Shown here one piece after another: positions 8,820 to 24,432 of a DNA stretch of 64,000 nt. Both the position numbers and the translations under genes were made by a program. Below the pieces are notes generated by a model. The model was not told where the DNA came from, did not search any database, and saw only the letters and a program-made list of their open reading frames with translations. Source of the DNA: Minisyncoccia bacterium (lineage in GTDB: Bacteria; Patescibacteriota; Minisyncoccia; Phycocordibacterales; UBA918). Positions within the stretch are counted from its first letter, which is position 1. Each line of letters opens with the position of its first letter. Location: NCBI GenBank assembly GCA_041742075.1, contig JBGSJJ010000004.1, positions 35,900 to 99,899 on the forward strand. Reading direction: 5' to 3'.

Positions 8820-8856
8820 ACACTGGTTATTTTATTTCCGTGTATACTAGACGGAT

Positions 8857-9174
8857 ATGTTGGCTAAGAAAGAACGATTAAACCGAACTGCGTTTGATCG
8901 TTTTTTTGTATCGGGTAAGCGCTACAATAGCCCCTATTTTCAACTGATTTATACCCCTTATAAAAACTTCCATGGGTCGGTGGTGGTGGGAAAAAAAGTC
9001 TACAAAAAAGCCGTTCTCCGTAACCGTCTCCGCCGGCAGGTGTATGGTGTGTTGTATCGAAATAAGACAACCTTAAAGATAGGAGTCTATATTTGTATAG
9101 CAAAACCAGCCAGCACTTCCCTACTTAAAGGTACCATAATTATTGAACTAGAAAAATTACTCAAGCAGATGTAG
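8857..9174 (+). CDS. rnpA: ribonuclease P protein component
   Basis: 105 aa basic protein directly after rpmH; LNRTAFDRFF...RNRLRR pattern of RnpA. Confidence 0.85.
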   Translation: MLAKKERLNRTAFDRFFVSGKRYNSPYFQLIYTPYKNFHGSVVVGKKVYKKAVLRNRLRRQVYGVLYRNKTTLKIGVYICIAKPASTSLLKGTIIIELEKLLKQM

Positions 9175-9246
9175 AGGTTTTCGACAGTCCCCTCGTTTCG
9201 AGGTAGAATAGCTAAATTACACAAGATTCCTACCCCTTTAACTTTT

Positions 9247-9975
9247 ATGTTCAGTTTTATTTGGCACACATTTTTCTTTGACCCAATTTACAATGGTCTC
9301 GTCTTTTTTATAGATGTTATACCAGGTGGTGACGTGGGTTTGGCTATTATTTTTATTACAATACTCGTGAAAGTTATCTTATTACCTCTGTCTATAAAAG
9401 CAGCTAAAACTCAGGTCGTGATGCGGGAGATTGAACCAAAACTTAAAGAACTTAAAGAAAAAATTACTGACAGACAAGAACAAGCAAAAGCCATGATGCT
9501 TCTGTATAAAGAATCAGGCATTAATCCCTTCGCCAGTATCATCCTCGTTTTTTTACAGATACCGATTTTAATTGCCCTCTACTTAGCTCTTTCAAAAGGA
9601 GGTGGTGTACCACTACCGGCTATTAATACAGATATTTTATATACCTTTATTCCTAATCCAGAATCAGCCTCAATGCTTTTCTTAGGTATTCAAGATATAA
9701 CCCTTCGCAGTTTACCCCTAGCGCTCTTAGCGAGTGTATTTCAGTTCATTCATGGCTCACTTACTATCCCAAAAGCTACACCACGTGACCCGAATGTCCC
9801 ACTAACCCTTAAAGAAGACTTTACGCGTAACATGCACCTTCAGATGCGCTATGTGATGCCGATAATTATTTTCTTTGCGGGGTATACAATCTCAGCGGCG
9901 CTCGCACTTTATTTTGCTATCAGCGCTCTGATGGCGATTGGAACAGAGTTTATCGTGAGACGCTACCGAAACTAA
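9247..9975 (+). CDS. yidC: membrane protein insertase YidC/Oxa1 family (short Gram-positive-like form)
   Basis: 242 aa, multi-TM; follows rnpA; conserved LPL..K/ Q..M..I.P...EL segment. Confidence 0.85.
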   Translation: MFSFIWHTFFFDPIYNGLVFFIDVIPGGDVGLAIIFITILVKVILLPLSIKAAKTQVVMREIEPKLKELKEKITDRQEQAKAMMLLYKESGINPFASIILVFLQIPILIALYLALSKGGGVPLPAINTDILYTFIPNPESASMLFLGIQDITLRSLPLALLASVFQFIHGSLTIPKATPRDPNVPLTLKEDFTRNMHLQMRYVMPIIIFFAGYTISAALALYFAISALMAIGTEFIVRRYRN

Positions 9976-11093
9976 CCAGCTCCAATACCGAGAGTACAGG
10001 TCACCACACGATTTATAACACCGCTAGTAACTGGCGTTCCACCAGCTTGATTACACTGGGCAGTTTGAGCAGAGCAATTCCAACCCAATAACCCGAAATT
10101 ACACGGATACGTTTCGGTTCTCGTCGTGGCTGGTGGGTTAGCTGGATCATCTGTTGGAGTGTCTACAGAGTCTATAGGAGTACTGCGGGCACCATAACAA
10201 AGTACCTCTCCCGGGTTACTGGTATTGACGATGCCGAGTTGACTTCCACCACTACAGCGAGCAGTAATGACTGCATCAGTATTCCACGAAGTACAACGTT
10301 CAGCACTTTGTCTAAGACAGGTTGCTTCTAATCTGTCCATTTCACAACCGCCAACTTCAGTACAGTAGTCGAGTAGGTCAGCCCGTATATCGTCTGGAAT
10401 GTCTTCAGGTAAGCCAGGAACTATCGCCGGGTCAACAATTACATCACTGGGTTCTGGAATGATACAACTATATACAATTCCGGTAGCTGTTACATTTGTG
10501 ATACGTGTTTGCCTATCAGGACAACTTTCTGGTCCGGTGATCACGTCTGAATCAGGGTCTGGTTCGCCCGGCCCGGGAGGTTCTGGATTTTCACCGATAC
10601 CGTCACCATCGCTGTCTCTAGGAACGGGTCGATATTGCTGGCCACACTCTACATCGGCCCAGATGTTACCGATATTTTGACCACGTAAGGCTTCCCAGTA
10701 CGTTCCTCCACCAGAGACGGTTAATGCTTTGAGTACCGTGTCGACTATCGTCCATGCCCCAAGGAGTAAGACGAGGCCAATTAAGGCATTGACGAAAAAT
10801 ACTTTTGCTTTGGCGTAGGCGGCCTGGTTTCCACCTGAAAATACGAGTTTAAAACCAGCGTATATAAGCACTAAAGCGACAAAGATGGTCGAGATAGTAA
10901 CTATCCAATCCACCACCACGTCTATCTGCTGTACTAAGTGACAAAAGTTACATTCAGGGCCTTCACACACCACTAAGCCAGCTGGTCCCGGGTCTTGTGC
11001 GAAGCTGGTGCTAGGGAAAGCAAAAACACTCAGAACAAGGAAACTTATGGTGAGTAAAGAAAGTGTCCGCACGAAAAGTGAAGCTAAAGACAT
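9972..11093 (-). CDS. secreted membrane protein: signal peptide + two hydrophobic helices (VirB2/TrbC pilin-like topology) + about 230-aa Cys-rich extracellular C-terminal domain
   Basis: Signal peptide ...STSFAQ; CEGPECNFCH; TM1 VVVDWIVTISTIFVALVLIYAGF; loop SGGNQAAYAKAK; TM2 FVNALIGLVLLLGAWTIV; at least 14 Cys in the C-terminal part. Last gene of the T4SS-like operon. Confidence 0.5.
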   Translation of the reverse strand: MSLASLFVRTLSLLTISFLVLSVFAFPSTSFAQDPGPAGLVVCEGPECNFCHLVQQIDVVVDWIVTISTIFVALVLIYAGFKLVFSGGNQAAYAKAKVFFVNALIGLVLLLGAWTIVDTVLKALTVSGGGTYWEALRGQNIGNIWADVECGQQYRPVPRDSDGDGIGENPEPPGPGEPDPDSDVITGPESCPDRQTRITNVTATGIVYSCIIPEPSDVIVDPAIVPGLPEDIPDDIRADLLDYCTEVGGCEMDRLEATCLRQSAERCTSWNTDAVITARCSGGSQLGIVNTSNPGEVLCYGARSTPIDSVDTPTDDPANPPATTRTETYPCNFGLLGWNCSAQTAQCNQAGGTPVTSGVINRVVTCTLGIGAG

Positions 11094-11098
11094 ACGTG

Positions 11099-12295
11099 TT
11101 ATTGAACCAAAGCTGGGTCAAACACCCAGAGTGTGTTATCGGTCTTGTTTCTAAAGACAATCTTTGACCAATCATCAACCATAGACATGTTTGTGACATC
11201 AAGTTTTCTGCCGGCAGCGGTAAGTGGACTGAGGAAGAAGACGTTCTGTCCGGTTTCGAGGTTAAAGAACCAGAAGGTATCATCTGAAGTTAGGGTTCCT
11301 TTATACCACGCATCAATAAACGTCGTGCTGGTCTCGGCTTCTGGCACGGCACACCACATAAGGACACTATCTGGCCTGGAAAACGTACATTTCTCTGGTA
11401 GTAAGAGGTGATCTGTTTGGTATAGGGTTTTGGTTGGGGTCACTGTCTCACTAAACAGTACGCGATTTTGCGTATACGTATAGATAGAGGCGACATCGTT
11501 TTTGAGCATGACTAAACTAGCCCCACTATTTCCTATTGGAATAAGTGTGTTGTTCCTAATCTCATACGCATACCCTTCAAGGAGAGGAGATGGCTTGGTG
11601 TAAGTATAGATACCTTCTATGGTGTGACCCCACACTATTTTTAATTGACGAATTTTGAGTGAAAATAGTTCTTGGCGCACTTGGGTGTCGAGGTTGTAGC
11701 TATAACCTTTAGTTCCGTTTTGGTTCTCGAGGGTGTAGAGAATGACGCGATTATTTTCATAAGCAATATTGCTTGGATTTGGTGGTAAGGGAATAGTCTC
11801 TTGGGTTTCAGGCGACCCTTCCTCAAGCCCTAGTTCAGCCACAAAACTCGAACGGGTATTGTCGATGTAGGTGCTATAGACAACAGATGAGCCGTCTGGG
11901 GAGAACACAGCTTCGACTGACTGCGGAACCGTCATTTTAGATACGGAGGTCTCTTCCCCAGTAAAGAGATTTATTTCATAGACGTGTCCCACTCCCCGCT
12001 CGGCAAAACGGACTTTGGGATAGCCAGCTGTGGTTGTTATCACAAAACCAGAAGCAGGCCGGTTCGAGAGTAATTTAAGCGGGAACTTGGCGAGGGCTTC
12101 TGGGTCGGGAGTGGTATCAACGATCGACTCACTCTCTAGTTCCTGAAGTGGGCGATCTTCTCCGCCCGTAAAGCCGAGGTTAGTAAATATTTCCCCACCA
12201 GACTTAGGGGTACCAAAAAATAGTAAATACAACCATACTGAAATGAGTATGATAAGTATGAGTATTCCCCCGCCAATTAATATTCCTCGTTTCAT
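11099..12295 (-). CDS. N-terminally membrane-anchored hypothetical protein (T4SS-like operon)
   Basis: 398 aa; single N-terminal TM (ILIGGGILILIILISVWLYLLFF) then a large extracytoplasmic domain; start 3 nt-scale spacing from neighbours. Confidence 0.6.
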   Translation of the reverse strand: MKRGILIGGGILILIILISVWLYLLFFGTPKSGGEIFTNLGFTGGEDRPLQELESESIVDTTPDPEALAKFPLKLLSNRPASGFVITTTAGYPKVRFAERGVGHVYEINLFTGEETSVSKMTVPQSVEAVFSPDGSSVVYSTYIDNTRSSFVAELGLEEGSPETQETIPLPPNPSNIAYENNRVILYTLENQNGTKGYSYNLDTQVRQELFSLKIRQLKIVWGHTIEGIYTYTKPSPLLEGYAYEIRNNTLIPIGNSGASLVMLKNDVASIYTYTQNRVLFSETVTPTKTLYQTDHLLLPEKCTFSRPDSVLMWCAVPEAETSTTFIDAWYKGTLTSDDTFWFFNLETGQNVFFLSPLTAAGRKLDVTNMSMVDDWSKIVFRNKTDNTLWVFDPALVQ

Positions 12296-12304
12296 AAATA
12301 TAGG

Positions 12305-13177
12305 CTAAATGTTTTGACAAGAACAGCTCCTACCGTTATTTCCCTGATCCTGACATAGTAACGTTCGGGTCTCTGTGCCACAAAACTCATTGCCAGTACA
12401 GGCGTCGCCCGAAACTTGTGAAGTTGGTTGTGTCCACACACAAACTCCACCAGGATTAGTATTGTCGCCACCGCCTCCACCCGTGCCGTCAGCCCGGGTG
12501 ACATTTCTGAGAGCATCGAGCTCAGCCCTTTGCGCTTCAAGTGCGGCACGCATGTCAGCGTCAGAACCGGCACCTAAGGCATCAAGTTCAGCCAGGGCCT
12601 CATCTATGGCAGCTAACATGGCCTCTACTTGATTTCGGTCCATTTGGGCTAGGTTTAATCGAGCTGGGAAACAGAGGTATTGGTTTGGGATAAGATTTCC
12701 ATCAGCATCAGTAGCTTGCTCAAAGCGTCCAGGCAGAGCATCACACGCGAGACGACTAACCGCCACCGCATTGGGTTCGTCTCTCACAATTCCGATAGGG
12801 TTAAAGGTTGAGCGGTTATCCTCGCCTTCCCCCGATTCTAAGAAAGCTAGGTTGGTCAAACTGGTGTTGACGGTGTTCAAAATTATTACTGCCGCGAGCA
12901 CGATAAGCAAGCCAAGAATAGCGCCCCTGATGTCTCGCTTAGCATCTTCTTTACTCGTTACGATGTCGGAGAGAACGTACTTTACTCCCGCAATGGTGAT
13001 TTTAAGTAAGGCCAACACTGCCGCAATTGAGATAGAGAGAATATACAGTGCGTTTAGGTAGGCGTCGACGTCTATGTTGCCTTCGTCTACCCCCGGGATA
13101 CCAACCATAACCTGAAACTCCTGTGCAAAGGTATTGAGTGGGAAGAGGAGAGCGAGAACGATAAGTGTTTTTAACAT
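12305..13177 (-). CDS. second VirB2/TrbC pilin-topology protein with coiled-coil and Cys-rich C-terminal extension
   Basis: Signal peptide MLKTLIVLALLFPLNTFAQ; TM1 LNALYILSISIAAVLALLKITIAGVKYVL; charged loop SKEDAKRDIRG; TM2 AILGLLIVLAAVIILNTV; C-terminus ...CVWTQ...CTGNEFCGTE...CQDQGNNGRSCSC. Confidence 0.5.
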   Translation of the reverse strand: MLKTLIVLALLFPLNTFAQEFQVMVGIPGVDEGNIDVDAYLNALYILSISIAAVLALLKITIAGVKYVLSDIVTSKEDAKRDIRGAILGLLIVLAAVIILNTVNTSLTNLAFLESGEGEDNRSTFNPIGIVRDEPNAVAVSRLACDALPGRFEQATDADGNLIPNQYLCFPARLNLAQMDRNQVEAMLAAIDEALAELDALGAGSDADMRAALEAQRAELDALRNVTRADGTGGGGGDNTNPGGVCVWTQPTSQVSGDACTGNEFCGTETRTLLCQDQGNNGRSCSCQNI

Positions 13178-13180
13178 AAC

Positions 13181-14323
13181 TTAAAATCTAATTTGAAATG
13201 AATTACGAGCTGCACTGATGATGTCTGAGGCACTGCGAATCTGAAGTCCAACGGTATACTCAGCACTACCGCTGTCTTTACGAAGGGTTATTTCGTACGG
13301 GTTTTTAAGTGAACCGCTTACTTTCCTACCACCAAGTGTCCACGAGACACTAGCGCCAGAAGCCAGGCTACTCTTTTCTAAGTGGTAGGGTGCCCCAAGT
13401 ACCGTTATTTCATTGGCGGTCAAGTCAAATGGAGACTTAAGAGCTACTTCACTAATACCCCTAAGGGCGTTATTTTCATAGAAAATAAGTTCTCCTTCAG
13501 TTAAAGGTACGTCAATACTTTTTCGCCCAATACGGAGACCGTCAAGGTTTGAGACTTCAACCACTAGGGTGACTTCTTTGCGGAGTGGTGGAGAAAAGCG
13601 GATGGTGTTGCCTCCACGCGTGTTTCCCCCGTTTATTACTTTGTTTTCGAGCTTCCATACATAACTGAGGTCACTAGAACCTATGCCAGTACCGGTATAC
13701 ACGACTGCAGTAGCAGAAATAGGAGAATTAACGCCAGGCAAACTTCTACCCGCATAGAAAACCGGAGCGGTGGTATTGGCATCGATAATGATGTCTACAC
13801 GTATTGGTCTAAAGGTGTAGCTTGCGCTGACTTTTACCCCACTTTCCATAACGAGCTCGGCGCGGACTTCCTTTGTCTTACCTAGTGCGGGGCTGACAAT
13901 AGTAATTTTACGGAGACCTGTAAGAGCATCAATCCGGGCTCCATCGACATACCATACAATAATCGCACCGACGGTATTGAGTGAATAATCATCAAGTCGT
14001 ATTTCGGTAACCGTATCGGGTGGTGGAAAGCTCGGTGAGGCAATAAGGCTTGCTGGACTCCCATTGGTTTGAAATGACTGTATACCAGTCCCTTGACTCG
14101 GCGCATTGGTAGTAGGGAGGCTTCCGTTGAACTGATTTAAAGCGTTAATCAACGACTGCTCGTAGTCGCCTGCTATATTGGTATTGAGTCTATATTCAGG
14201 AAGGGCAATATCGCTTATTGACAAACCCTCACTATCTTCATCTGATTGTGCAAATGAGTTTTGCGCAATCATAAAACTAGTTATGATGAGGAGAAACAAA
14301 AATTTGCGAGCCCAATTTTGCAT
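13181..14323 (-). CDS. secreted hypothetical protein (cleavable signal peptide), T4SS-like operon
   Basis: 380 aa; N-terminal signal peptide ...QNSFAQ; beta-rich composition; no recognisable catalytic motif. Confidence 0.6.
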   Translation of the reverse strand: MQNWARKFLFLLIITSFMIAQNSFAQSDEDSEGLSISDIALPEYRLNTNIAGDYEQSLINALNQFNGSLPTTNAPSQGTGIQSFQTNGSPASLIASPSFPPPDTVTEIRLDDYSLNTVGAIIVWYVDGARIDALTGLRKITIVSPALGKTKEVRAELVMESGVKVSASYTFRPIRVDIIIDANTTAPVFYAGRSLPGVNSPISATAVVYTGTGIGSSDLSYVWKLENKVINGGNTRGGNTIRFSPPLRKEVTLVVEVSNLDGLRIGRKSIDVPLTEGELIFYENNALRGISEVALKSPFDLTANEITVLGAPYHLEKSSLASGASVSWTLGGRKVSGSLKNPYEITLRKDSGSAEYTVGLQIRSASDIISAARNSFQIRF

Positions 14324-14375
14324 AATTTAATCATAGCATAGCCACTAATTACAAAACTTTACTTGCGAACAGTCT

Positions 14376-15350
14376 TTAGGGACGATACGCATGCTGAACC
14401 ATAAAAGCCCAAATGATGACCGCGGGTATAAAGTTGAAAAATGGGAGAAAGTATATGATGAGACTGATAGAAAACCATACCCACAACAGTCCTTTCATGG
14501 AGTTTACTCCAGCTATCTGGTACGAAAGCCAGCCACCAACACAAAAAACAAAACCGGTAATGATATTTAAAGCATATCCAAGTATAGCAACCCCTAAAAA
14601 CATCTCAGCGACGTTTGTCCCGACCCAATTTACCCCACTCCCGAGGAAGCTACCGATAAACGGTACATAGGCAAGCGCGGCAGCAACCCCGTTTACTGCG
14701 GACTTAATGAGTGAGCCAGTACCGACTCCGAAGACAAAAATAAGGAAAAAAAATATTTGAATAGTACAGAAGCCAATTGCAAAGGTAATAAGCATCCTCG
14801 AAATAGTTTTGGCTGCTACCCGGGTGTAGAGGCTTTCACTTGACTCCTCTTCCATAGTCTCAAAGCCACGGGCAGTAGCTTGAGGGTTTTCTAAAACCGT
14901 AATAGTTTCTTCACCCACCTCGTCTTTCGGTTTTTTTTTCTCGGTGCGGTAGAGATTTTGCTTATCTTTGATGCTTTCTCCTAATAATGCCGGACGTCCC
15001 TTACGATCATCCCTGTCAGCTATAATGTTTCCCTCAGTATCCCAATCGTCTGAGGTGTTGGCAACACCGGGTTTTCGGTTTTGGTTGGCGGGAACCATGT
15101 CTTGACGACCCGTCTCCTTTGTATCGCTCATAAAGGGAGAGTTATAAATCACCCGGACGTTTGTCGGACTTTCTACTCGTGGAGCTTTAGTCGGATTAGC
15201 GGGGAGAGAAGAAACTTTTCTGTCATACGCATCAGTCCGGACACCAAAGCCACGTGGAATTTTAGGTGCTGGTGACTGACTTGAGTCAGTTCTACGAACA
15301 CCAGGATTAATGTCTTCAAAATAGGTGTCTTTTCTGTTTGGTTCTGCCAT
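14376..15350 (-). CDS. polytopic membrane protein (disordered basic/Pro-rich N-terminus, 4-5 C-terminal TM helices), possibly VirB6/VirB3-like accessory
   Basis: 324 aa; N-terminal about 170 aa low-complexity; C-terminal hydrophobic block FAIGFCTIQIFFFLIFVFGV ... ILGYALNIITGFVFCVGGW ... WVWFSISLIIYFLPFF. Confidence 0.55.
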   Translation of the reverse strand: MAEPNRKDTYFEDINPGVRRTDSSQSPAPKIPRGFGVRTDAYDRKVSSLPANPTKAPRVESPTNVRVIYNSPFMSDTKETGRQDMVPANQNRKPGVANTSDDWDTEGNIIADRDDRKGRPALLGESIKDKQNLYRTEKKKPKDEVGEETITVLENPQATARGFETMEEESSESLYTRVAAKTISRMLITFAIGFCTIQIFFFLIFVFGVGTGSLIKSAVNGVAAALAYVPFIGSFLGSGVNWVGTNVAEMFLGVAILGYALNIITGFVFCVGGWLSYQIAGVNSMKGLLWVWFSISLIIYFLPFFNFIPAVIIWAFMVQHAYRP

Positions 15351-15362
15351 ACCTGGTGTTGG

Positions 15363-17168
15363 TTAGCTATTGGCACGAAGTTCCTCGCGCGCTTTTTTAA
15401 TCTGAAGAATTTGGGATGGGTCAGAGGTAATAATTTGGTCCTCGGTATACGAGGCAATCACTTTAATCGCTACGTGCTTCATGCCGGCAAAGAAGATACC
15501 TTCCCCTACCCCACTTTCAAGGAGAAGAAACTTCTCTTCATCAGTTAGGTTGAATGTCTGTTGAATGTTATCTATTGCAGTCGGTGACTGCTTCATAAGA
15601 AGCTGAAGACTGGAGTTGGTGATCATCGGAATTCCGTATGGTGAGCGGAGGAAGTCGTCCACGTCTTGGGTAATCGTCGAAAGACCAAGGTAGTATTTTC
15701 GTCCACGTTTGGCGAGCATAAAGAGGAAAGACGCCGTGTCTTCACTTTTCATCATCCACCAGGCTTCATCGATTACCAAGAGTCGTTTAGTGAGGCGTCT
15801 TCTAATGGCACTCCAGATGTGGTTGGTGATGATGTACATTGCCACCGTTTTAAGCTCGTCTTCCATGTCTCGCAAGGAAAACACTACGAATTTTTGGTTG
15901 ATGTCGACGTTGGTTGGTTTGTTCATAAAACCAGACCAGGTACCTGAAGAGTATTTTTGGAGTCGAGAAATCAGTGAACCACTCCCCTCCATGCCGGCGA
16001 GCACCATTTCGAAGTCTGAAAGTAGTGGTGGTTCAAGGGTGCTGTAATCACTGGTTCCTGTAATGTCCTTAAGTGCATAGGTTTCGATAATGGCTTGGTC
16101 AATAATAGTTTCCTCCTCTGGAGTCAGTCCACCAAGCATGAGGCGGAACATACCCATCAGCTCGATAATATGCGAACGTAAAATATCGCTCGGACTCTCG
16201 TCAGGTTGTGCTATCGGTAAGTCAAACGGATTAATGTGGTGAGAAGAAGAAAGCGAAATATTGAAAAACCGACCACCGGTGGCTTCTGCTAGGTACTCGT
16301 ATTCACGCTCCGGGTCAATCACGATTACCTCGACCCCAAACATAAGTGAACGCAAAATCTCTAGCTTGGTGGTGTATGACTTACCGGCTCCAGAGGTAGC
16401 AAACGTAACGGAGTTGTAGTTGGTGAGCTGGAACCGATCGAAGAGGACAAGACTTGAGTTGTGGCGGTTGATGCCATAGAGGATACCGGTGTCCGACGTA
16501 AGGTCAAACGAAACAAACGGAAAGAAACTTGAAAGTGGGGCGGTGTTGAATTTACTGTGAATAAGTAGTTCGTCTGAACAAGTCGGGATCACACTCCGAA
16601 TCCCTTGCTCTTGCTGAAAGAGCGCTGGTTTAAGGTGAATCAGACGAGCATCAAGGATACTTTTTATTTCTGATTCGGTTTTATTTAAAACTGCCTCGTC
16701 CTCACCATAGATAGTTACATAGAGGCCCACATTAAAAAGCTTCTCTTCCGCCTGTTGAAGCTTGTCGCGCAGGTCTTCGAGGTTGCGCCAGGCGGCTTCA
16801 AGTTGTGGATCACGCACCATACCTTGTTCAGCGCGGATGTTTATTTGACTCTGTACCTCAGCTACTTTTTTCTGGAACTTCTTGAGTGTTTCAGCTGTAT
16901 CAATCGGGTGAATCACGATTGATACATCGAGTTCTTTTTCAATGTTAAGAATTGGCTCAAGCCAGCCATCGTTTAGGTAACGTGGGTAGGATACGGTGAA
17001 AAACGTTCGGGCATAGGTACCACTGATGTTTATGCTTCTGGTGTTAATTTCAATTCCCGATGGAGCGATAATGTCCTCTAGGGTAAGCAGTGCTTCAGAA
17101 ACCGCCGAGACGGAGTTATCATCAAAGTTTGAAGTTTTTTTTGGTTGTAAGAAGTCTAGTAAAGCCAT
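15363..17168 (-). CDS. virB4: VirB4/TrbE/CagE-family type IV secretion ATPase (ATPase-domain ORF)
   Basis: 601 aa; Walker A FATSGAGKSYTTK; Walker B LLVIDEAWWMM (DEAW typical of VirB4); size and motif order of the VirB4 C-terminal two thirds. Confidence 0.85.
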   Translation of the reverse strand: MALLDFLQPKKTSNFDDNSVSAVSEALLTLEDIIAPSGIEINTRSINISGTYARTFFTVSYPRYLNDGWLEPILNIEKELDVSIVIHPIDTAETLKKFQKKVAEVQSQINIRAEQGMVRDPQLEAAWRNLEDLRDKLQQAEEKLFNVGLYVTIYGEDEAVLNKTESEIKSILDARLIHLKPALFQQEQGIRSVIPTCSDELLIHSKFNTAPLSSFFPFVSFDLTSDTGILYGINRHNSSLVLFDRFQLTNYNSVTFATSGAGKSYTTKLEILRSLMFGVEVIVIDPEREYEYLAEATGGRFFNISLSSSHHINPFDLPIAQPDESPSDILRSHIIELMGMFRLMLGGLTPEEETIIDQAIIETYALKDITGTSDYSTLEPPLLSDFEMVLAGMEGSGSLISRLQKYSSGTWSGFMNKPTNVDINQKFVVFSLRDMEDELKTVAMYIITNHIWSAIRRRLTKRLLVIDEAWWMMKSEDTASFLFMLAKRGRKYYLGLSTITQDVDDFLRSPYGIPMITNSSLQLLMKQSPTAIDNIQQTFNLTDEEKFLLLESGVGEGIFFAGMKHVAIKVIASYTEDQIITSDPSQILQIKKAREELRANS

Positions 17169-17171
17169 AGA

Positions 17172-17807
17172 TTAATTTATACGGGGTGCGTCACCAGTGG
17201 TATCCCCCGGGTTAAAGATATGATAAAAAAGCTCAACTAATTCTTCATTCTGAAGTGGAACCGTGCGGACACCAATCCGAATCAGTCCCTGTTCAACGAG
17301 GGTAGACCGTTGCTCGAGTTGAACCCGGTATTCTTCAAACTGTTTTTCATCAAACAGTGACTTGTTCTTCTTACTACCAAACATAGAAGTGATACCCGAG
17401 GCTAGGTTTGCTTGAATCGGTGTGTACGGCACTACAATGAAAAAGTTTTTACTCATAATATCCACCTCAGTCGTGAAGGTGCGAATGAACTGCATGTATT
17501 CTCGAAGTTGAATTTGCATCAGGTCATTGTCTTGGATAGGTTCCCGAGCTTCGAGTAAGGCAAGATAGGGTGTGATGTCGAGTCGTCGTGACTGGATATA
17601 AAACTGAATCGAGAAATCGAGCGTGTTTAAAAAAGACTGAAATTGAGTCAAAATAGCCTGTTGTTCGTCGGCACTCTTAAGGGCGAAGTTGATTGAGGAG
17701 GCGAGTAAAATAGTGCAAAGTTTACCATCTTTTAAAACCACCACATTTTCTTTAATGTCGCGGACAGGGACGAAATCTTGAGTTGCTGGTTTTACGTTAG
17801 AAGCCAT
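17172..17807 (-). CDS. VirB4 N-terminal domain ORF (separated from the ATPase ORF only by an in-frame TAA plus one codon)
   Basis: 211 aa; same frame as the downstream ATPase ORF (...PRIN-TAA-TCT-ATG-MALL...); N-terminus VPVRDIKENVVVLKDGKLCTILLASSINFALKSADEQ resembles the N-terminal region of Gram-positive VirB4 homologues (from memory). Confidence 0.6.
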   Translation of the reverse strand: MASNVKPATQDFVPVRDIKENVVVLKDGKLCTILLASSINFALKSADEQQAILTQFQSFLNTLDFSIQFYIQSRRLDITPYLALLEAREPIQDNDLMQIQLREYMQFIRTFTTEVDIMSKNFFIVVPYTPIQANLASGITSMFGSKKNKSLFDEKQFEEYRVQLEQRSTLVEQGLIRIGVRTVPLQNEELVELFYHIFNPGDTTGDAPRIN

Positions 17808-17808
17808 A

Positions 17809-18225
17809 TTATTTTACTTTTTGGAGAGCCTGCATTTCTAGTTTACGGGAGAGCGAGTTTATACCTCCTTTACCAGTCGTGGGCATAGTCTGAATACCAG
17901 AAGCACTACGCGCGTCTCCCGACGCTCTATCTCGGTACACAACGTCAGTTCGTTTGTGCCAGTAGTACATCTTGGTTTTTTTGTAGTAGTTGACGACTGA
18001 TTCAAGAAAGATTGAAAAGGGACGGTTGTTCACTGGATAAAAAGCGAGCAGTAGGGCGAGGAGAGTAAGGGGAAGACCAATTAAGAGAAACACGATGAGT
18101 CCAAAGACAATGTACGAAACGACCCCAACCCCAACCCCGCCAGCTAGATACACGAATTGTTTCCAGGTGAAGGGACCAATGATTTTGTCTTCGATTTCAA
18201 TAAATTGAGGTACCTCAAAACGCAT
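17809..18225 (-). CDS. PrgI/VirB3-like small membrane protein
   Basis: 138 aa; MRFEVPQFIEIEDKIIGPFTWKQFVYL start and double-TM hairpin, typical of the PrgI family found immediately upstream of VirB4 in Gram-positive T4SS loci. Confidence 0.55.
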   Translation of the reverse strand: MRFEVPQFIEIEDKIIGPFTWKQFVYLAGGVGVGVVSYIVFGLIVFLLIGLPLTLLALLLAFYPVNNRPFSIFLESVVNYYKKTKMYYWHKRTDVVYRDRASGDARSASGIQTMPTTGKGGINSLSRKLEMQALQKVK

Positions 18226-18277
18226 ACATATGTATTATACATTGTACTTTACAATTAGCGGCGTAACTTATGCGAAC

Positions 18278-19204
18278 TTATCCCCGACCGTCGTTTGCTT
18301 GGTCGCTACTGAAGTCAGGCGTAGGTACCACCGGTGCTCGTTTTAGCAAGGCATCTTGCGCCACACTATGAATGATATTTTTATTGGCGTCCGGAGTTCC
18401 GTAGAGCTCAGGATATTTTTCTCGATACGCACCGTAGCCATGAATTCGTTCGTTGTCAGTATCCATGGTTCGAACAGGTGCTATGTCAGCAGGACGTTCA
18501 GTTTGGGGTGGTGGCGGAGTAGCAGTAAATGGGTTTGGGATATTGAGTGGCGGAACTGAGCTAACTGGTTTAGTTACCGGCAGTGGTTCAGAAACCACTG
18601 GTTCAGACAAGCTCGTGAGGCGAGCCGAAGAAGCAGGGCCGGCGATTGGTACCTGGGCGACTGACGGAATAGGGCTTGGGGCCACAGTATCGTACGTTGT
18701 ACTAGCGGTAGGAGGTATTACTGGTTGAAACACTGCTTGGGGTGGATTTGGTGCTGTTGCTACTGTGCTACGTGGGGCCGGAGTAGTTTGGGCAGACATA
18801 CCGGTCGGGACTGTTTCAGAGGCTGGTTTTAGGTAGTTTTTGGTAGTTGCTGAAGATGTTCCAGGTAGTGGGCTTTGTGGCAGTGGTGCAGACACAACGA
18901 CACTTTGCGCACTTTTTTCTTTGAGAGTTTTTACTGTTTGGGAAATTTCCAGAGCCAGACTCATTTGTATATCATCAGTTACACCGAGCGAACTAAGCTC
19001 ATTAAGCATCGACTTTAAATCAACGAGGCCAAGAAGATAATAGCTCATCGCAGTGGTAAGAGCTCGCCTATTTTTATCCTCGAGGTGGTGTTTTATAAGA
19101 AGAGCGGTGACGGCAATCGGAATTTGCTCTGAGTCAATCAGGGTCTTTACCTCAGCCGGAGCCTTGGTGTATGCGTCTTGAAATTTTTCCCAGTTACTTT
19201 GCAT
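18278..19204 (-). CDS. hypothetical protein with Pro/Thr/Ser-rich low-complexity C-terminal half (T4SS-like operon)
   Basis: 308 aa; N-terminal helical region, no TM; C-terminal PxxP-rich tract. Confidence 0.55.
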   Translation of the reverse strand: MQSNWEKFQDAYTKAPAEVKTLIDSEQIPIAVTALLIKHHLEDKNRRALTTAMSYYLLGLVDLKSMLNELSSLGVTDDIQMSLALEISQTVKTLKEKSAQSVVVSAPLPQSPLPGTSSATTKNYLKPASETVPTGMSAQTTPAPRSTVATAPNPPQAVFQPVIPPTASTTYDTVAPSPIPSVAQVPIAGPASSARLTSLSEPVVSEPLPVTKPVSSVPPLNIPNPFTATPPPPQTERPADIAPVRTMDTDNERIHGYGAYREKYPELYGTPDANKNIIHSVAQDALLKRAPVVPTPDFSSDQANDGRG

Positions 19205-19215
19205 ATGTGAATGAT

Positions 19216-21348
19216 TTACCTAAAGAATTCTGAACCGTAGACTGAGTTATTTGCCCAATTAGCCCATGGTCCTGGCGGTACGGTTGGAGAGCCACCTGGT
19301 GGCGGAACCAGACCTCCGGCATTAATTAAGACAGCTGTCATGAGTCTTATACGCTCGTTTTCGTTAATTCCGTTTTTCATACGAGCCTCAATAATTCTTG
19401 GGGTGATGTATCCAATCATTTCTGGACGAATCAAAGCGTCTACTGATAGTGTGCCGACGACTGCATCGCCACCAGCTAAGAGTCGTTGTCGTTGAGTAGT
19501 TTGATGTCCTACAGCAGTACCTCCAGTACGTAGAGCGGTATTCGTAGCTTCATAGATTGGAGCGGCTGCCGTTCCCCCGGTTTGAACAACACTAGCTGTT
19601 CCAAACTGCGCAACATTATTTTGTGCTGTGCGACGAGCAGCTCTAATAGCGTTGATGTCTTCGTTACTAAAGTTTCCTGAACCTTCAAGAGAAGTTATCT
19701 GAGCATCAGTAAGGTTAATAGCCACGTTACCATTTGTAAGTTGCCCGACGTCTAAGTTGGCACGTTCGCTATTTGACATCTCACGAATTGTTGTAGCAAG
19801 ATCTCGAAGACTGGTATCGAGCTCCCCAACGGTTCTGGTGTTGTCTTCTAAACCAGCTAGGTGTTCAGCAAACGCAACCTCGCGAGTCTGTTCAGCCAAT
19901 ACCTGGTTGTTTCTAATGTTTTGCTTTTTCTCAAAGGTGTTAACATCGTTTCGTGATTGTTTACCTCCGTACTTAGCAGATGCCGTGGCGTCAATAGCTT
20001 GCTGACGAGTTCGTGCAGTGAGTCCGACAGCACCGAGCGCAACCCGACCCACTCTCGCGCCGGCTGAATTACTGGTACTTAAACGAGCATTAGCCCGGGC
20101 AACGGCTTTCCCAACTCTCGTATCTGGATCACCAATACGGCCAAGAGTATTCCTTCCAACAAATGAACTCCCGCCTCCGACTAATGAACTCGCGCCTCCG
20201 ACTAACCTCCTTTGCACGCTTTGCATCGCGTTAAGTGACATAGAAGCGCCCCCGGCACCCATTTTCTTCGAAACAACGATGGCACCAACCATGAAACCAA
20301 GGGCAATTAAGTAAAACAAAATCGAAAGTGGCACGTCGTTACCAGTTTCTTCTGGGTTGAGGGCGATTTTGTTGAGGTTGTAGGTTGAACCAGCCTCAAA
20401 TGCCTGTGCGTGAAAGCCTATCAATACTTTGAAAGCAATAAAAATCATAAAGAAGTAGGCTGGAGCAAAAAAAGCTTGGTTTAAAAACCCACTCCACCAC
20501 TTACTGGTGTAGCCCTGAAACTTCGGTAGAATCATACCCAGGAACATAAAGGGTGAGAACATCATGTATATCACCAGGGAGATAAATCTAATAGTGAGCA
20601 TGATGGCACCTGCCAAAAACACCGCCGCTGAGGTGAGCATAAACACCAAAATCATAAGCAGGTAGCCAAAGCTCCGATAGCCTTCTTGGTCAATGGCTTC
20701 TGCCCCACCCAAGGCTTGGAGTCCGACGAGTTGCATAAACATAGCGTGTATACCAACACTCTCTGGGCTTTCGATATTTATGGTAGGAAGCGTAGCCCCT
20801 TCGGGAAAAACAGAGGCGGTGGTGTTAACTGTCTCTGCCATGAGGTTAAAAATTTGTATCGCGGCGATGTTTGAGAAGTCAACGATAAATTTTGCAAAGA
20901 AAAGACTAAAGTTTATGAGAAGCGCCGCCACAATCAAAGAACCAAGCGCTCGCTTGGCGCCACTATCGTCAGCGTTCCAGATAAGCTTCAGTCCAATAAA
21001 CACCAGTGCAAAGATAAATAGCATGTTAAAGACGTCTCGAATGATCACCCAGACCTCCTCAACTGCAATACCGATGTTGCCAAGCATCCATTCACCCATA
21101 CCGCGGACAAAGTTATTTACCGCAGCATCAAAGGCAATCCCGGCCAGCCAAACAGCAAAACCACCAATCTGCATGACAACGTGATAGAAGAAGGCAAAAA
21201 TCCAAGCCCCGACACCACTTTCGTCAGCGTCGACTACGGTTGGGGCAGTCCCTTGAGCATGAGATAGGGCCGGAAGCACGAAAAAGAGCGCAATACAAAG
21301 TATCGGGAACCAGGTTCTTAAAATGAGTTGTAATACAAAGTACTTCAT
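19216..21348 (-). CDS. VirB6/TrbL-like polytopic membrane protein with about 330-aa C-terminal extension
   Basis: 710 aa; signal peptide/first TM; at least 6 hydrophobic helices over residues about 50-390; C-terminal soluble region with coiled-coil-like segments. Confidence 0.55.
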   Translation of the reverse strand: MKYFVLQLILRTWFPILCIALFFVLPALSHAQGTAPTVVDADESGVGAWIFAFFYHVVMQIGGFAVWLAGIAFDAAVNNFVRGMGEWMLGNIGIAVEEVWVIIRDVFNMLFIFALVFIGLKLIWNADDSGAKRALGSLIVAALLINFSLFFAKFIVDFSNIAAIQIFNLMAETVNTTASVFPEGATLPTINIESPESVGIHAMFMQLVGLQALGGAEAIDQEGYRSFGYLLMILVFMLTSAAVFLAGAIMLTIRFISLVIYMMFSPFMFLGMILPKFQGYTSKWWSGFLNQAFFAPAYFFMIFIAFKVLIGFHAQAFEAGSTYNLNKIALNPEETGNDVPLSILFYLIALGFMVGAIVVSKKMGAGGASMSLNAMQSVQRRLVGGASSLVGGGSSFVGRNTLGRIGDPDTRVGKAVARANARLSTSNSAGARVGRVALGAVGLTARTRQQAIDATASAKYGGKQSRNDVNTFEKKQNIRNNQVLAEQTREVAFAEHLAGLEDNTRTVGELDTSLRDLATTIREMSNSERANLDVGQLTNGNVAINLTDAQITSLEGSGNFSNEDINAIRAARRTAQNNVAQFGTASVVQTGGTAAAPIYEATNTALRTGGTAVGHQTTQRQRLLAGGDAVVGTLSVDALIRPEMIGYITPRIIEARMKNGINENERIRLMTAVLINAGGLVPPPGGSPTVPPGPWANWANNSVYGSEFFR

Positions 21349-21359
21349 TCTCTATCGTG

Positions 21360-22583
21360 TTAACCGACGGGGTCTACCCCTGGTGGGTCGACAGGAGTGG
21401 CGGGATCGATTGGGGTATCAACAACCGGGTCGACTGGGTCTACCGGTGGCATGTCTGGGTCACCAACTACTGGGTCAATTGGGTCTTCTTCTCCTGGAAA
21501 GATTGGGTCAAATGGGTCGTCTGGGTCTGGAGGTGTGTCAGGGATGTTGATTATGATTGGGTCAGTATCCCACCTTGTAGGGTCGGGTCGGTTGGTTGGG
21601 TTATTGACGTCATTACCAAGTTGATCAAGGAAGCCAGTAGGACCGTCAGTTAGTCCGAGTAGTCCCCCGACGCCTTGGAGGGCTTGGTTGAGGAGTTGTT
21701 GGAAGAGTGCGCTGATAAGCTCATCTATTTCGTCAGCCTCAATCAAGGTACGCGGACCGACTGAAAGTTGAAAAGTGAGTGCTTCTGAAATAACCTGACC
21801 CGGTGTCTCTATCGTACAGTTGGTTGGATTGTCTGGATCTTCACAGCGCTTGACAGAGAGAAAACCATTACCGAAGTCAAGTAATTGACGCTCGTTTACC
21901 TCTACACCAGCAATCTTGGCGTTTAACCTGGCCTCAAGGGCAAACTTCTGACCAAGCGCAGTGTTTTCACTCGGACGTTGTGTCATTTCAAGCCAGGCTG
22001 GCCAACCGCCACCACCGATGAAGTCTCCGTTAAGGAAGCCTTCGATGTTGTTGGTAATATCGCTTAAGCGACACTGTGCCTCGTACTCCCGGGCATTACT
22101 TTGCTGTTCACGGAAAGAGTTGGTGACGGCAATCTGTACATCGAGTGAAAACGGTTCGCAGAGCCCGGCTAGATTACTTTGTGAAATAAACTCACCAAAG
22201 GTTTGGTCAGCCAGGTCAAGCGCAAATGCCTCGAGGTCTTGGATAAAAGCAGGACTACCCTGGAAACCACTGTTTATCCAGGTAAGAAGGCTTTGGGTCA
22301 TTGACTGTAAGATCATTTTGGCAAACCAAAATAGAAGTCCGTCCAGGGCAAATTCTTTAATTTGAAGTAGCCCTGTCATTTGAGCAGAAAATGTGTCGAC
22401 TTGGGCGTTGACGGTGTTTATGAAAACGTTAGCCTGTTGCGTTCCTTCAAGGGCAAAAGCTGCTTCAGCCCTCTTTAGTGAGCCCGTATGCGCAAAGGGT
22501 TGCAGGGTAAGCCCGGCCACTATTAATGTGATGAGCAGTACTGTACTTGGAGTTTTTAGTAGTTTTTTTAACATACACACCAT
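21360..22583 (-). CDS. secreted hypothetical protein with C-terminal Pro/Asp/Val repeat tail
   Basis: 407 aa; N-terminal TM/signal peptide; C-terminal ...PVDPVDPVVDTPIDPATPVDPPGVDPVG repeats (cell-envelope spanning or anchoring tail?). Confidence 0.6.
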   Translation of the reverse strand: MVCMLKKLLKTPSTVLLITLIVAGLTLQPFAHTGSLKRAEAAFALEGTQQANVFINTVNAQVDTFSAQMTGLLQIKEFALDGLLFWFAKMILQSMTQSLLTWINSGFQGSPAFIQDLEAFALDLADQTFGEFISQSNLAGLCEPFSLDVQIAVTNSFREQQSNAREYEAQCRLSDITNNIEGFLNGDFIGGGGWPAWLEMTQRPSENTALGQKFALEARLNAKIAGVEVNERQLLDFGNGFLSVKRCEDPDNPTNCTIETPGQVISEALTFQLSVGPRTLIEADEIDELISALFQQLLNQALQGVGGLLGLTDGPTGFLDQLGNDVNNPTNRPDPTRWDTDPIIINIPDTPPDPDDPFDPIFPGEEDPIDPVVGDPDMPPVDPVDPVVDTPIDPATPVDPPGVDPVG

Positions 22584-23575: not shown

Positions 23576-24391
23576 CTAGTTTGGTATAGGTAGGTGCTTG
23601 ACGAGTTCAAGCCATTTTCTAAGCGACACGTCCTCTGCCCTGGTGGATACCGGTAGAGAGATGGTGGAAAAGATGTTGATAAGTTCGGCGCGGGAGTATT
23701 TTTTGGCTAAATTACCCAGTAGTTGCTTACGTTTTTGCCCAAAACCAAGGTGGAGCACGTCAAAAAAAAGCGCTTCGTCGACCCCTTCTAAACGATCTCG
23801 ACTGATGGCATAAATAGCAATGATACCCGAGTCCACTTTGGGTGGTGGCTGAAAATGACCACGACTGACGTCCCGTACATAGGTGGCGTCACCATAGACT
23901 TGGACGGAGAGCGAAAGCAGTGATTCCTTACTCCCTTTTGCGAGACTGCTGGTTGCGCGCTTAGCTACTTCCTTCTGCACCAAGAAAACCAGCGTCTTTG
24001 GTTGGGTACTCGAGGTAAGAAACAGCCTAAACAGTAACCCTGATAAGTAGTACGGTATGTTAGCTACTACTGAGTAAGAGCCGGCAGTTAACCCAAGTGA
24101 GCTGGGATCAAAGGTACGAACGTCAGCATGGGCTACGCTCAGTTGCCCGCTGGCTATAGCGTCCTTAAAGTTCTCATCAAGTACCGTGACCGCTCGTGGG
24201 TCGGCCTCAAGCGCGAGCACAGTAACTCCCCGAGCGAGAAGTTCCCGAGTTAAAACACCCGTTCCAGGCCCAATTTCAAGCACGGTTTCTCCAGGAGTTA
24301 ATTTACCGGCATCACACAACCACTTCGGGACAATGTCACTCGTGAGAAAATGCTGACCGAGTGATTTTTTAGTTTTAAAATCCAAGCTCAT
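23576..24391 (-). CDS. rsmA: 16S rRNA (adenine1518/1519-N6)-dimethyltransferase RsmA/KsgA
   Basis: 271 aa; SLGQHFL...VLEIGPGTGVLTREL SAM-binding motif characteristic of KsgA. Confidence 0.85.
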   Translation of the reverse strand: MSLDFKTKKSLGQHFLTSDIVPKWLCDAGKLTPGETVLEIGPGTGVLTRELLARGVTVLALEADPRAVTVLDENFKDAIASGQLSVAHADVRTFDPSSLGLTAGSYSVVANIPYYLSGLLFRLFLTSSTQPKTLVFLVQKEVAKRATSSLAKGSKESLLSLSVQVYGDATYVRDVSRGHFQPPPKVDSGIIAIYAISRDRLEGVDEALFFDVLHLGFGQKRKQLLGNLAKKYSRAELINIFSTISLPVSTRAEDVSLRKWLELVKHLPIPN

Positions 24392-24432
24392 AAAAGTACT
24401 GTAGGCTACGGAAGCTAAGTTGGCAAGAAGTT

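What the first reader, a model, noticed from the sequence alone, without database searches (positions are those of the whole stretch)
17160..17180. VirB4 ATPase is split by a single in-frame TAA (…PRIN-TAA-TCT-ATG-MALL…)
The 211-aa N-domain ORF (17172-17807) and the 601-aa ATPase ORF (15363-17168) are in the same reading frame. They are separated only by TAA and one Ser codon, and together would give an 813-aa protein of canonical VirB4 size. This could be (i) a genuine two-polypeptide VirB4 with termination-reinitiation coupling, since an ATG follows 3 nt after the stop, (ii) a recent nonsense mutation or pseudogenisation of the central ATPase of the apparatus, (iii) programmed readthrough, or (iv) a sequencing error. 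Each alternative has different functional implications for the whole system.
Basis: seen in the sequence. Interest (0 to 1): 0.55.

Follow-up and report, generated by a model that had tools for sequence, protein, structure and literature searches.

The report
Conserved two-gene VirB4 (TrsD plus ATPase)
The "broken" secretion-system ATPase is the normal, already described arrangement in Patescibacteria (CPR bacteria): a small TrsD-like gene encodes the N-terminal piece of VirB4, a separate gene encodes the rest, and their shared reading frame here is a coincidence.

Summary
On the minus strand a 211-aa ORF (17172-17807) ends in TAA, followed by TCT and the ATG of a 601-aa P-loop ATPase ORF (15363-17168) in the same frame.

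It is not a lesion, a recoding site or an error. The same split sits at the same position in 57 of 57 related species-level Patescibacteria genomes. The downstream gene lies in frame +1 in 25 cases, +2 in 21 and 0 in 12, counting the window. All three stop codons occur, and spacers run from 1 to about 400 nt. In two genomes a whole unrelated gene sits between the halves.

Both halves are under strong purifying selection. The small ORF models confidently as a standalone domain whose only good structural matches are TrwK/VirB4. The two ORFs cover consecutive, non-overlapping parts of full-length VirB4 profiles.

Staphylococcal plasmid pSK41 has the same trsC-trsD-trsE order and the same breakpoint. 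A 2025 paper (PMC12102498) already reports TrsD next to VirB4 as the commonest type IV secretion component in Patescibacteria.

The arrangement is already known, so interest is low.

The parts
17809..18225 (-). PrgI/TrsC-type (VirB3-like) small protein, 138 aa, directly upstream; 1-nt spacer to the next gene
   Evidence: Pfam PF12666 PrgI, E 1.1e-9, 39.1 bits against a cutoff of 27. A PrgI homologue lies directly upstream in 51 of 55 related loci with enough flank. pSK41 TrsC at the same position also hits PrgI weakly.
17172..17807 (-). TrsD-like gene: a standalone N-terminal subdomain of VirB4, 211 aa, ending in TAA at 17174-17172
   Evidence: Precomputed Pfam PF26593 'TraC-like'. NCBIfam hits to the N-terminal positions of VirB4 models and to TrsD/TraD, all below their cutoffs. 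hhalign against pSK41 TrsD: probability 86%, E 4.7e-6, 175 columns. AlphaFold2 pLDDT 91.5. The 14 best PDB fold matches are all TrwK/VirB4.
17166..17174 (-). Junction: TAA stop (17174-17172), 3-nt spacer TCT (17171-17169), ATG start (17168-17166)
   Evidence: The spacing is typical of this operon, whose other junctions are 1, 2, 3, 5, 9, 11, 11, 12, 52 and 52 nt (from the ORF coordinates). There is no stable RNA structure (z = 0.28).
15363..17168 (-). Short-form VirB4 ATPase, 601 aa: the rest of the N-terminal domain plus the P-loop C-terminal domain. Walker A is TSGAGKSYT; Walker B is LLVIDEAW.
   Evidence: NCBIfam conju_CD1110, 368 bits against a cutoff of 325, model positions 164-734 of 752. 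Pfam P-loop_TraG, AAA_10 and DUF87. PDB 4ag5 VirB4 C-terminal domain, E 1e-41, and TrwK 446-741. End-to-end BLASTP match to pSK41 TrsE from residue 3 against residue 2.
9972..22583 (-). Surrounding chromosomal type IV secretion operon: tightly packed minus-strand genes including two T4SS_pilin/VirB2-like proteins and several large proteins with no family match
   Evidence: It is flanked by dnaA/dnaN (5620-8453) and ksgA/uvrD (23576-26460).

Best explanation
The two ORFs are two real genes of a chromosomal Patescibacteria type IV secretion operon, in the order prgI/virB3-like, trsD-like, virB4. The 211-aa product is the first folded subdomain of the VirB4 N-terminal domain, made as a separate polypeptide (the TrsD/TraD type, Pfam 'TraC-like'). 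The 601-aa product is the remainder of VirB4: the rest of the N-terminal domain plus the ATPase domain. The boundary falls in what is a flexible, length-variable linker in the rare fused relatives. Translation stops at the TAA, and the ATPase is started independently at the ATG 3 nt downstream. The short A/U-rich unstructured spacer suggests that ribosomes already on the operon mRNA do this (inferred). The two proteins then presumably reassemble non-covalently at the membrane, with the small subunit next to the VirB3-like PrgI protein (inferred from what is known of VirB3-VirB4 contacts). Shown here: the conservation of the split, the homology of each half and the tiling of the two halves. Inferred: translational coupling, physical reassembly and docking to VirB3. 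The shared reading frame in this genome has no functional meaning.
For: (1) The 120 best of 7,067 homologues of the small ORF are all 187-232 aa at 69-100% identity. Of the best 150 cluster representatives at 50% identity, only 2 are about 800-900 aa.
(2) In 57/57 species-level genomes the small ORF stops at the same place and the ATPase ORF starts just after it. Frame offsets are +1 in 25, +2 in 21 and 0 in 12. Stop codons are TAA in 39, TAG in 16 and TGA in 3. Spacers are 1-13 nt in 43, 16-148 nt in 13 and about 400 nt in 2.
(3) In L025 and L035 a 117-119 aa 23S_rRNA_IVP gene (PF05635, E 1e-35) lies between the halves.
(4) Synonymous differences are saturated (pS 0.75-0.95) while pN is 0.11-0.18 for the small ORF and 0.05-0.11 for the ATPase ORF.
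(5) The halves tile full-length VirB4 profiles without overlap. On conju_CD1110 they cover 2-102 and 164-734; on VirB4_plasma 101-248 and 292-893; on TIGR00929 7-179 and 249-724.
(6) The small ORF folds confidently on its own (pLDDT 91.5, pTM 0.81, with a low-confidence tail at 199-211). Its 14 top PDB matches are all R388 TrwK/VirB4 chains (probability 1.00).
(7) pSK41 has trsC(PrgI-like)-trsD(227 aa)-trsE(672 aa). The ATPase ORF aligns to TrsE from residue 3 against residue 2 to the end (E 9e-37), and the small-ORF family aligns to TrsD over 175 columns.
(8) PMC12102498 reports 2,272 TrsD homologues in Patescibacteria, 1,664 of them next to virB4. It describes TrsD as a remote homologue of the VirB4 N-terminal portion and as essential in S. 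epibionticum ML1.
(9) TAA is the commonest stop of long ORFs in the window, 27 of 47.
(10) A Logan assembly of run SRR28170465 is 100% identical over window 15910-20807.
Against: No protein-level evidence exists for this genome, so two separate products are inferred from comparative genomics. The NCBIfam TrsD/TraD hit (31 bits) is far below the curated cutoff (200), so the link to staphylococcal TrsD is remote and rests on profile-profile comparison, synteny and the shared breakpoint. The local Pfam copy gave no hit for the small ORF. Coupling by termination-reinitiation cannot be told apart from ordinary independent initiation: gene starts in this window show no more Shine-Dalgarno-like pairing than random positions, so the lack of such a site at the junction is uninformative. 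Start-codon assignment in the most divergent loci (L049-L057) is approximate, because the alignments begin at ATPase-ORF residues 25-28.
Confidence: 0.93

Rival explanations
1. Programmed stop-codon readthrough (or another recoding event) at the TAA yields an 813-814 aa fused VirB4, at least as a minor product.
For: In this genome the two ORFs share a frame, with only TAA plus one codon between them. Rare relatives are truly fused: P0189, 797 aa, from Colwellbacteria, and P0232, 898 aa. So a covalent fusion is compatible with function.
Against: Only 12 of 58 orthologous junctions are in frame, and 46 are in frame +1 or +2, where readthrough cannot fuse the products. Some in-frame cases carry a second in-frame stop in the spacer (L004, L046). 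Two genomes have a whole gene in between. The stop is TAA followed by T, which is regarded as an efficient termination context in E. coli (my own knowledge, not tested here). No stable RNA structure flanks the site (z = 0.28). TAA is the ordinary stop codon of this genome.
Confidence: 0.03
2. A recent nonsense mutation has pseudogenised the central ATPase of a decaying secretion system.
For: A single in-frame stop within what looks like a canonical-length VirB4 is the usual signature of a fresh nonsense mutation.
Against: The stop sits at the same position in all 57 related genomes even though synonymous sites are saturated, and both halves have low non-synonymous divergence. The ATPase ORF starts with a conserved ATG and a conserved N-terminal motif, MG(I/L)(L/F)DF, which is also recognisable in pSK41 TrsE. 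All neighbouring operon genes are intact.
Confidence: 0.01
3. A sequencing or assembly error created the stop.
For: The window probably comes from a metagenome-assembled genome, where single-base errors do occur.
Against: A separately produced Logan assembly of run SRR28170465 is identical over 4,898 nt including the junction, although it may derive from the same reads. Fifty-seven assemblies from other projects show the same split.
Confidence: 0.01

Closest known systems
TrsD-TrsE of staphylococcal conjugative plasmids pSK41/pGO1 (pGO1 subclass of the MPF_FATA class)
   Same: Same three-gene order: VirB3/PrgI-like TrsC, then the ~210-230 aa TrsD, then a ~600-670 aa VirB4-like ATPase. Same breakpoint: the ATPase ORF aligns to TrsE from residue 3 against residue 2. 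The small-ORF family aligns with TrsD over almost its full length (hhalign 86%, E 4.7e-6). The pSK41 genes are separated by 14 nt and lie in different frames (coordinates).
   Different: The sequences are very divergent: 24% identity for the ATPase, and only a 44-residue BLASTP segment for TrsD. The NCBIfam TrsD score is far below its cutoff. pSK41 is a conjugative plasmid with relaxase genes, whereas this cluster is chromosomal, next to dnaA, with no relaxase or coupling protein identified among the ORFs scanned.
Patescibacteria type IV secretion system as catalogued in PMC12102498 (Microb Genom 2025), including the essential TrsD homologue of Ca. Southlakia epibionticum ML1
   Same: The component set matches: VirB4, TrsD, PrgI/VirB3 and VirB2-like pilins. 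The location also matches: chromosomal and near dnaA, dnaN and ksgA. This locus is an instance of that system.
   Different: Nothing substantive. In the passages I read, the paper calls TrsD a remote homologue of the VirB4 N-terminal portion with no assigned function. Those passages do not state the exact tiling of VirB4 profiles, the breakpoint shared with pSK41, or the random frame relation shown here.
Canonical single-chain VirB4 (R388 TrwK; CD1110-family and other monoderm VirB4 proteins of about 750-830 aa)
   Same: Together the two ORFs cover the whole profile. The ATPase domain matches 4ag5 and TrwK, and the small domain matches TrwK structurally.
   Different: Here it is two polypeptides rather than one. 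The cut lies inside the classical N-terminal domain, about 210 residues in, not at the boundary between the N-terminal and C-terminal domains.
VirB3-VirB4 fusion proteins of some conjugative systems
   Same: They show that gene boundaries around the N-terminus of VirB4 are evolutionarily plastic (mentioned in PMC12102498).
   Different: The direction is opposite: fusion rather than fission. No VirB3-VirB4 fusion occurs here.

Membership tests
TrsD/TraD-type protein (NCBIfam NF041427; Pfam PF26593 'TraC-like') | Scores above the family's curated threshold | tested here: inconclusive
   NCBIfam NF041427 scores 31.2 bits, E 1.8e-7, against a cutoff of 200, so that threshold is not met. The protein database's precomputed annotation gives PF26593 'TraC-like' for the identical protein and for all 120 best homologues. 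The local Pfam copy returned nothing for this ORF, so I could not re-score it.
TrsD/TraD-type protein (NCBIfam NF041427; Pfam PF26593 'TraC-like') | Full-length homology to a prototype TrsD | tested here: met
   hhalign of the 87-sequence family alignment A2 against pSK41 TrsD gives probability 86.4%, E 4.7e-6, over 175 columns (8-203 against 32-217 of 227).
TrsD/TraD-type protein (NCBIfam NF041427; Pfam PF26593 'TraC-like') | Standalone ~200-230 aa protein encoded between a VirB3/PrgI/TrsC-like gene and a VirB4-like ATPase gene | tested here: met
   The window order is PrgI (138 aa), then 211 aa, then 601 aa. pSK41 has TrsC, TrsD, TrsE. PrgI lies upstream in 51/55 related loci.
VirB4 ATPase family | P-loop ATPase domain of the VirB4/TraC/TraG type with Walker A and B motifs | tested here: met
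   The 601-aa ORF scores 368 bits on conju_CD1110 (cutoff 325). It hits Pfam P-loop_TraG at E 3e-25 and PDB 4ag5 at E 1e-41. GAGKS and VIDEAW are visible in the translation.
VirB4 ATPase family | VirB4-type N-terminal domain present | tested here: met
   The domain is supplied across two genes. The small ORF matches N-terminal positions of three VirB4 models and TrwK structurally. ATPase-ORF residues 1 to about 225 cover the remaining N-terminal positions.
VirB4 ATPase family | Single polypeptide of about 750-830 aa | tested here: not met
   A conserved stop and restart occurs after about 210 residues in the window and in 57/57 relatives.
Programmed stop-codon readthrough / recoding site | The in-frame relation of the two ORFs is conserved among orthologues | tested here: not met
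   Frame offsets are 0 in 12, +1 in 25 and +2 in 21.
Programmed stop-codon readthrough / recoding site | A stimulatory RNA structure or special context at the stop | tested here: not met
   Folding z-score is 0.28 for 17090-17210(-). The spacer sequences are not conserved.
Pseudogene (recent nonsense mutation) | The disruption is absent from orthologues, and constraint is relaxed | tested here: not met
   The split is present in all 57 relatives. pN is 0.05-0.18 against pS 0.75-0.95.
Translationally coupled gene pair (termination-reinitiation) | Translation of the downstream gene depends on translation of the upstream gene | not testable with these tools
   Only spacing can be scored: 1-13 nt in 43/58 junctions. 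Shine-Dalgarno-like pairing is no stronger at gene starts than at random positions in this window, so its absence at the junction says nothing.

The most novel reading that the evidence does not exclude
The identical breakpoint in pSK41 TrsD/TrsE and in the Patescibacteria pair could mean a single ancient fission, or an ancestral two-gene state. That would link the chromosomal Patescibacteria system specifically to the pGO1-type subclass of monoderm conjugation systems. The rare fused Patescibacteria forms (Colwellbacteria P0189, where an 'MGG' sits where the ATPase start would be) would then be secondary re-fusions. On this reading, encoding the first VirB4 subdomain separately is functionally meaningful. 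For example, it could act as a detachable VirB3/PrgI-docking adaptor whose amount can differ from that of the ATPase hexamer. This would give TrsD, which has 'no function assigned', a concrete and testable role.
Probability: 0.3. Interest if true: 0.35.

Novelty: already known. Interest (0 to 1): 0.12.

Why it matters
For annotation, this junction should not be flagged as a pseudogene, frameshift or recoding site, and the secretion system should be counted as intact. Automated pipelines and first-pass readers will meet this pattern in most Patescibacteria genomes. Biologically it matters only modestly. It makes explicit that TrsD plus the short VirB4 together equal one canonical VirB4, cut in a flexible linker. 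That gives the uncharacterised but essential TrsD protein an obvious working hypothesis: it is the membrane-proximal, VirB3-facing subdomain of VirB4.

Tried and rejected
- Local Pfam scans of the small ORF found nothing, even at E <= 10. The precomputed family PF26593 returned nothing from the local copy.
- A PDB sequence-profile search with alignment A1 found nothing at E <= 1. A fold comparison was needed instead.
- The first AlphaFold2 model, from a shallow 19-sequence alignment, was poor (pLDDT 60.6) and was not used. The 87-sequence alignment A2 gave pLDDT 91.5.
- The Shine-Dalgarno analysis was meant to test coupling. It was uninformative because gene starts in this window show weaker anti-SD pairing than random positions.
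- dN/dS ratios could not be computed because synonymous sites are saturated in nearly every comparison. Only pN against pS is reported.
- An RNA structure search at the junction found nothing (z = 0.28).
- Two literature leads were dead ends. The FEMS nomenclature review does not mention TrsD. The pELF plasmid paper's TraD is a VirD4-type protein and is unrelated. The main text of Guglielmini 2014 does not mention TrsD by name, so the statement of TrsD-VirB4 homology is cited through PMC12102498.
- An alternative genetic code was considered and rejected. TAA is the commonest stop of long ORFs here.
Full report
**Observation.** On the minus strand the text reads ...CCC CGT ATA AAT TAA TCT ATG GCT TTA CTA. 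The TAA is at 17174-17172, the single spacer codon TCT at 17171-17169 and the ATG at 17168-17166. The ORF table lists 17172-17807(-) at 211 aa and 15363-17168(-) at 601 aa. Translating 15363-17807 in one frame gives one internal stop and 813 sense codons.

**What the two ORFs are.**
- The 601-aa ORF is a VirB4-type P-loop ATPase. It hits Pfam P-loop_TraG, AAA_10 and DUF87. It scores 368 bits on NCBIfam conju_CD1110, above the cutoff of 325, covering model positions 164-734 of 752.
- By sequence it matches the solved VirB4 C-terminal domain 4ag5 (E 1e-41, residues 225-582) and TrwK of plasmid R388 (TrwK 446-741 against residues 252-556).
- The gene directly upstream of the pair (17809-18225) is a PrgI, VirB3-like protein.
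- The 211-aa ORF has no hit in the local Pfam copy. The protein database carries it as PF26593 'TraC-like'.
- NCBIfam gives the 211-aa ORF sub-threshold hits to the N-terminal positions of three full-length VirB4 models: VirB4_plasma 101-248 of 894, TIGR00929 7-179 of 792, and conju_CD1110 2-102 of 752. It also hits the 201-position TrsD/TraD family.
- For each VirB4 model the 601-aa ORF covers the following, non-overlapping positions (292-893, 249-724 and 164-734). The two ORFs therefore tile one VirB4 rather than duplicating a domain.

**Structure.** A shallow alignment gave a poor model (pLDDT 60.6). An 87-sequence alignment at 32-79% identity gave a confident standalone alpha/beta domain, with pLDDT 91.5 and pTM 0.81. 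Only the last ~13 residues have low confidence. Foldseek against the PDB returned 14 leading matches, all chains of TrwK/VirB4 from the R388 cryo-EM structures (8rtd, 8rtb, 7o41, 7o42, 7o43). Their probability is 1.00, E runs from 1e-4 to 5e-3, and query-normalised TM-score is about 0.5. The next match drops to probability 0.30. The tool does not report target coordinates, so the N-terminal placement rests on the NCBIfam profile positions.

**Is the split conserved?** Yes, and this decides the question.
- A search with the 211-aa ORF found 7,067 homologues. The 120 best (69-100% identity) are all 187-232 aa long. Where they carry names, they are labelled Kaiserbacteria, Parcubacteria or 'VirB4 component'.
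- An exhaustive search of 50%-identity cluster representatives found 2,305 hits. Of the best 150, only two are VirB4-sized: P0189 at 797 aa and P0232 at 898 aa.
- I fetched the locus from 57 species-level genomes of Patescibacteria, variously labelled Kaiserbacteria, Paceibacterota, Nomurabacteria, Minisyncoccia and 'Saccharibacteria'. I then located both halves by tblastn.
- In all 57, the small ORF ends in a stop at the equivalent position, and the ATPase ORF begins just downstream with ATG (one TTG).
- Counting the window, the ATPase start is in frame +1 in 25 cases, +2 in 21 and 0 in 12. The stop codon is TAA in 39, TAG in 16 and TGA in 3. The spacer is 1-13 nt in 43 cases, 16-148 nt in 13 and about 400 nt in 2.
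- An in-frame arrangement is thus, if anything, under-represented against the one-third expected by chance. Some in-frame spacers contain a second in-frame stop (L004, L046).
- The two 400-nt spacers (L025, L035) each contain a complete 117-119 aa gene of the 23S rRNA intervening-sequence protein family (PF05635, E about 1e-35). A fused product is impossible there.
- The start assignment is less exact in the most divergent loci (L049-L057), where the alignments begin at ATPase-ORF residues 25-28.

**Selection.** In comparisons with the five closest loci, synonymous differences are saturated (pS 0.75-0.95). Non-synonymous differences are 0.11-0.18 for the small ORF and 0.05-0.11 for the ATPase ORF. 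Both genes, and the stop between them, have been kept through long divergence. The ATPase ORF also has a conserved N-terminus, MG(I/L)(L/F)DF(L/I), which argues for a real, fixed start codon.

**Sequence error and genetic code.** A Logan assembly of run SRR28170465 is 100% identical to window 15910-20807, junction included. It may rest on the same reads, so the cross-genome evidence is the stronger argument. TAA is the commonest stop of long ORFs in the window, 27 of 47, so there is no sign of reassignment.

**How the junction works.**
- Within this operon the distances between successive minus-strand genes are 2, 11, 11, 52, 1, 3 (this junction), 12, 52, 3, 9 and 5 nt, from the coordinates. 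The VirB4 junction looks like any other gene boundary here.
- The RNA around it is A/U-rich and unstructured (z = 0.28).
- I tried to test for a Shine-Dalgarno site. Gene starts in this window show less anti-SD complementarity than random positions (mean -1.66 against -2.83 kcal/mol). The absence of such a site at the junction is therefore uninformative.
- The most economical mechanism is ordinary termination at TAA and independent initiation 3 nt later, probably by ribosomes already on the message. This step is inferred, not shown.

**Where the cut lies.**
- In the fused relative P0232, a stretch of about 100 residues rich in Pro and Ala links the two parts.
- Many standalone homologues of 300-440 aa carry long Pro/Ala/Gln-rich tails after the domain.
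- P0189 is fused through a short linker. It comes from Candidatus Colwellbacteria and has three cluster members.
- Together with the low-confidence C-terminal tail of the model, this places the break in a flexible tether between two independently folding units.
- The cut is about 210 residues into the classical VirB4 N-terminal domain. It is not at the boundary between the N-terminal and C-terminal domains.

**Comparison with what is known.**
- Staphylococcal plasmid pSK41 (NC_005024) carries trsC (135 aa, a weak PrgI hit), trsD (227 aa, annotated 'TrsD/TraD family conjugative transfer protein') and a 672-aa DUF87 ATPase at the position conventionally called TrsE. The trsD and ATPase genes are 14 nt apart and in different frames.
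- The window's ATPase ORF aligns with that ATPase from residue 3 against residue 2 through to the end (E 9e-37).
- The small-ORF family aligns with TrsD over 175 columns (hhalign probability 86%, E 4.7e-6). Plain BLASTP sees only a 44-residue segment.
- So the gene order and the breakpoint are both shared with pSK41.
[quoted passage not shown] It counted 2,272 homologues, 1,664 of them associated with VirB4.
[quoted passage not shown] S. epibionticum ML1 is listed as essential, and that these clusters are chromosomal and often near dnaA, dnaN and ksgA.
- The window matches this description. It has dnaN at 5620-6711, dnaA at 7071-8453, ksgA at 23576-24391 and a UvrD-type helicase at 24433-26460. 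Two T4SS_pilin-like genes lie inside the cluster.

**Verdict.** Options (ii) to (iv) are rejected, and the in-frame relation is a coincidence.

This analysis adds three small points that I did not see in the passages of the literature I read: the exact tiling of the two genes onto VirB4 profiles, the breakpoint shared with pSK41, and the random frame relation with occasional gene insertion. They suggest, but do not prove, a single ancient fission and a role for the small protein as the VirB3-facing subdomain of VirB4. That VirB3 contacts VirB4 and anchors it to the membrane is stated in PMC12102498. Its docking to the N-terminal domain in R388 is from my own knowledge of that structure and was not tested here.

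Noticed in passing
L025:4155-4514 and L035:4161-4514: In two related genomes a complete 117-119 aa 23S rRNA intervening-sequence protein gene (PF05635, four-helix-bundle type) is inserted exactly between the trsD-like and virB4 genes. I did not examine why this family lands there or whether it marks a mobile insertion.
   Followed up: partly
window 5620-8453 and 8454-9246: dnaN (5620-6711) and dnaA (7071-8453) lie about 1.5 kb from the end of the secretion operon. The ~800-nt gap at 8454-9246, which contains no ORF of 120 aa or more, could hold the replication origin. I did not search for DnaA boxes, and GC skew shows no clear switch within the window.
   Followed up: no
window 9972-11093 and 12305-13177 (minus strand): Two proteins with T4SS_pilin/TrbC-VirB2-like N-terminal regions are 373 and 290 aa long, much longer than classical VirB2 pilins. 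Their long C-terminal parts have no family match.
   Followed up: no
whole window (gene starts): Predicted gene starts show weaker complementarity to the anti-Shine-Dalgarno sequence than random positions (mean -1.66 against -2.83 kcal/mol). This suggests largely SD-independent initiation in this organism. Start sites were taken as the first ATG, so the result is rough.
   Followed up: partly
P0173, P0248, P0147, P0165 (relatives): Many standalone TrsD-like proteins carry 100-230 residue C-terminal tails rich in Pro, Ala, Gln and Thr. The fused P0232 has a similar ~100-residue linker. The variable disordered extension at the split point is unexplained.
   Followed up: partly
P0189 / P0271 / P0272 (Candidatus Colwellbacteria): A rare genuinely fused 797-aa version exists within Patescibacteria. 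An 'MGG' sits where the ATPase start would be, and about 20 residues are missing relative to split forms. This is suggestive of a secondary re-fusion.
   Followed up: partly
window 19216-21348, 18278-19204, 13181-15350, 21360-22583 (minus strand): Several large operon genes (710, 308, 324, 380 and 407 aa) have no Pfam family. The 710-aa protein has only a very weak hit to the CD3337/EF1877 mobilome membrane protein family (E 0.006). It may be the VirB6-like channel component.
   Followed up: no
window 30078-31973 (minus strand): A 631-aa ORF between a Mg-chelatase/ComM-like gene and a PNPase gene has no Pfam match.
   Followed up: no
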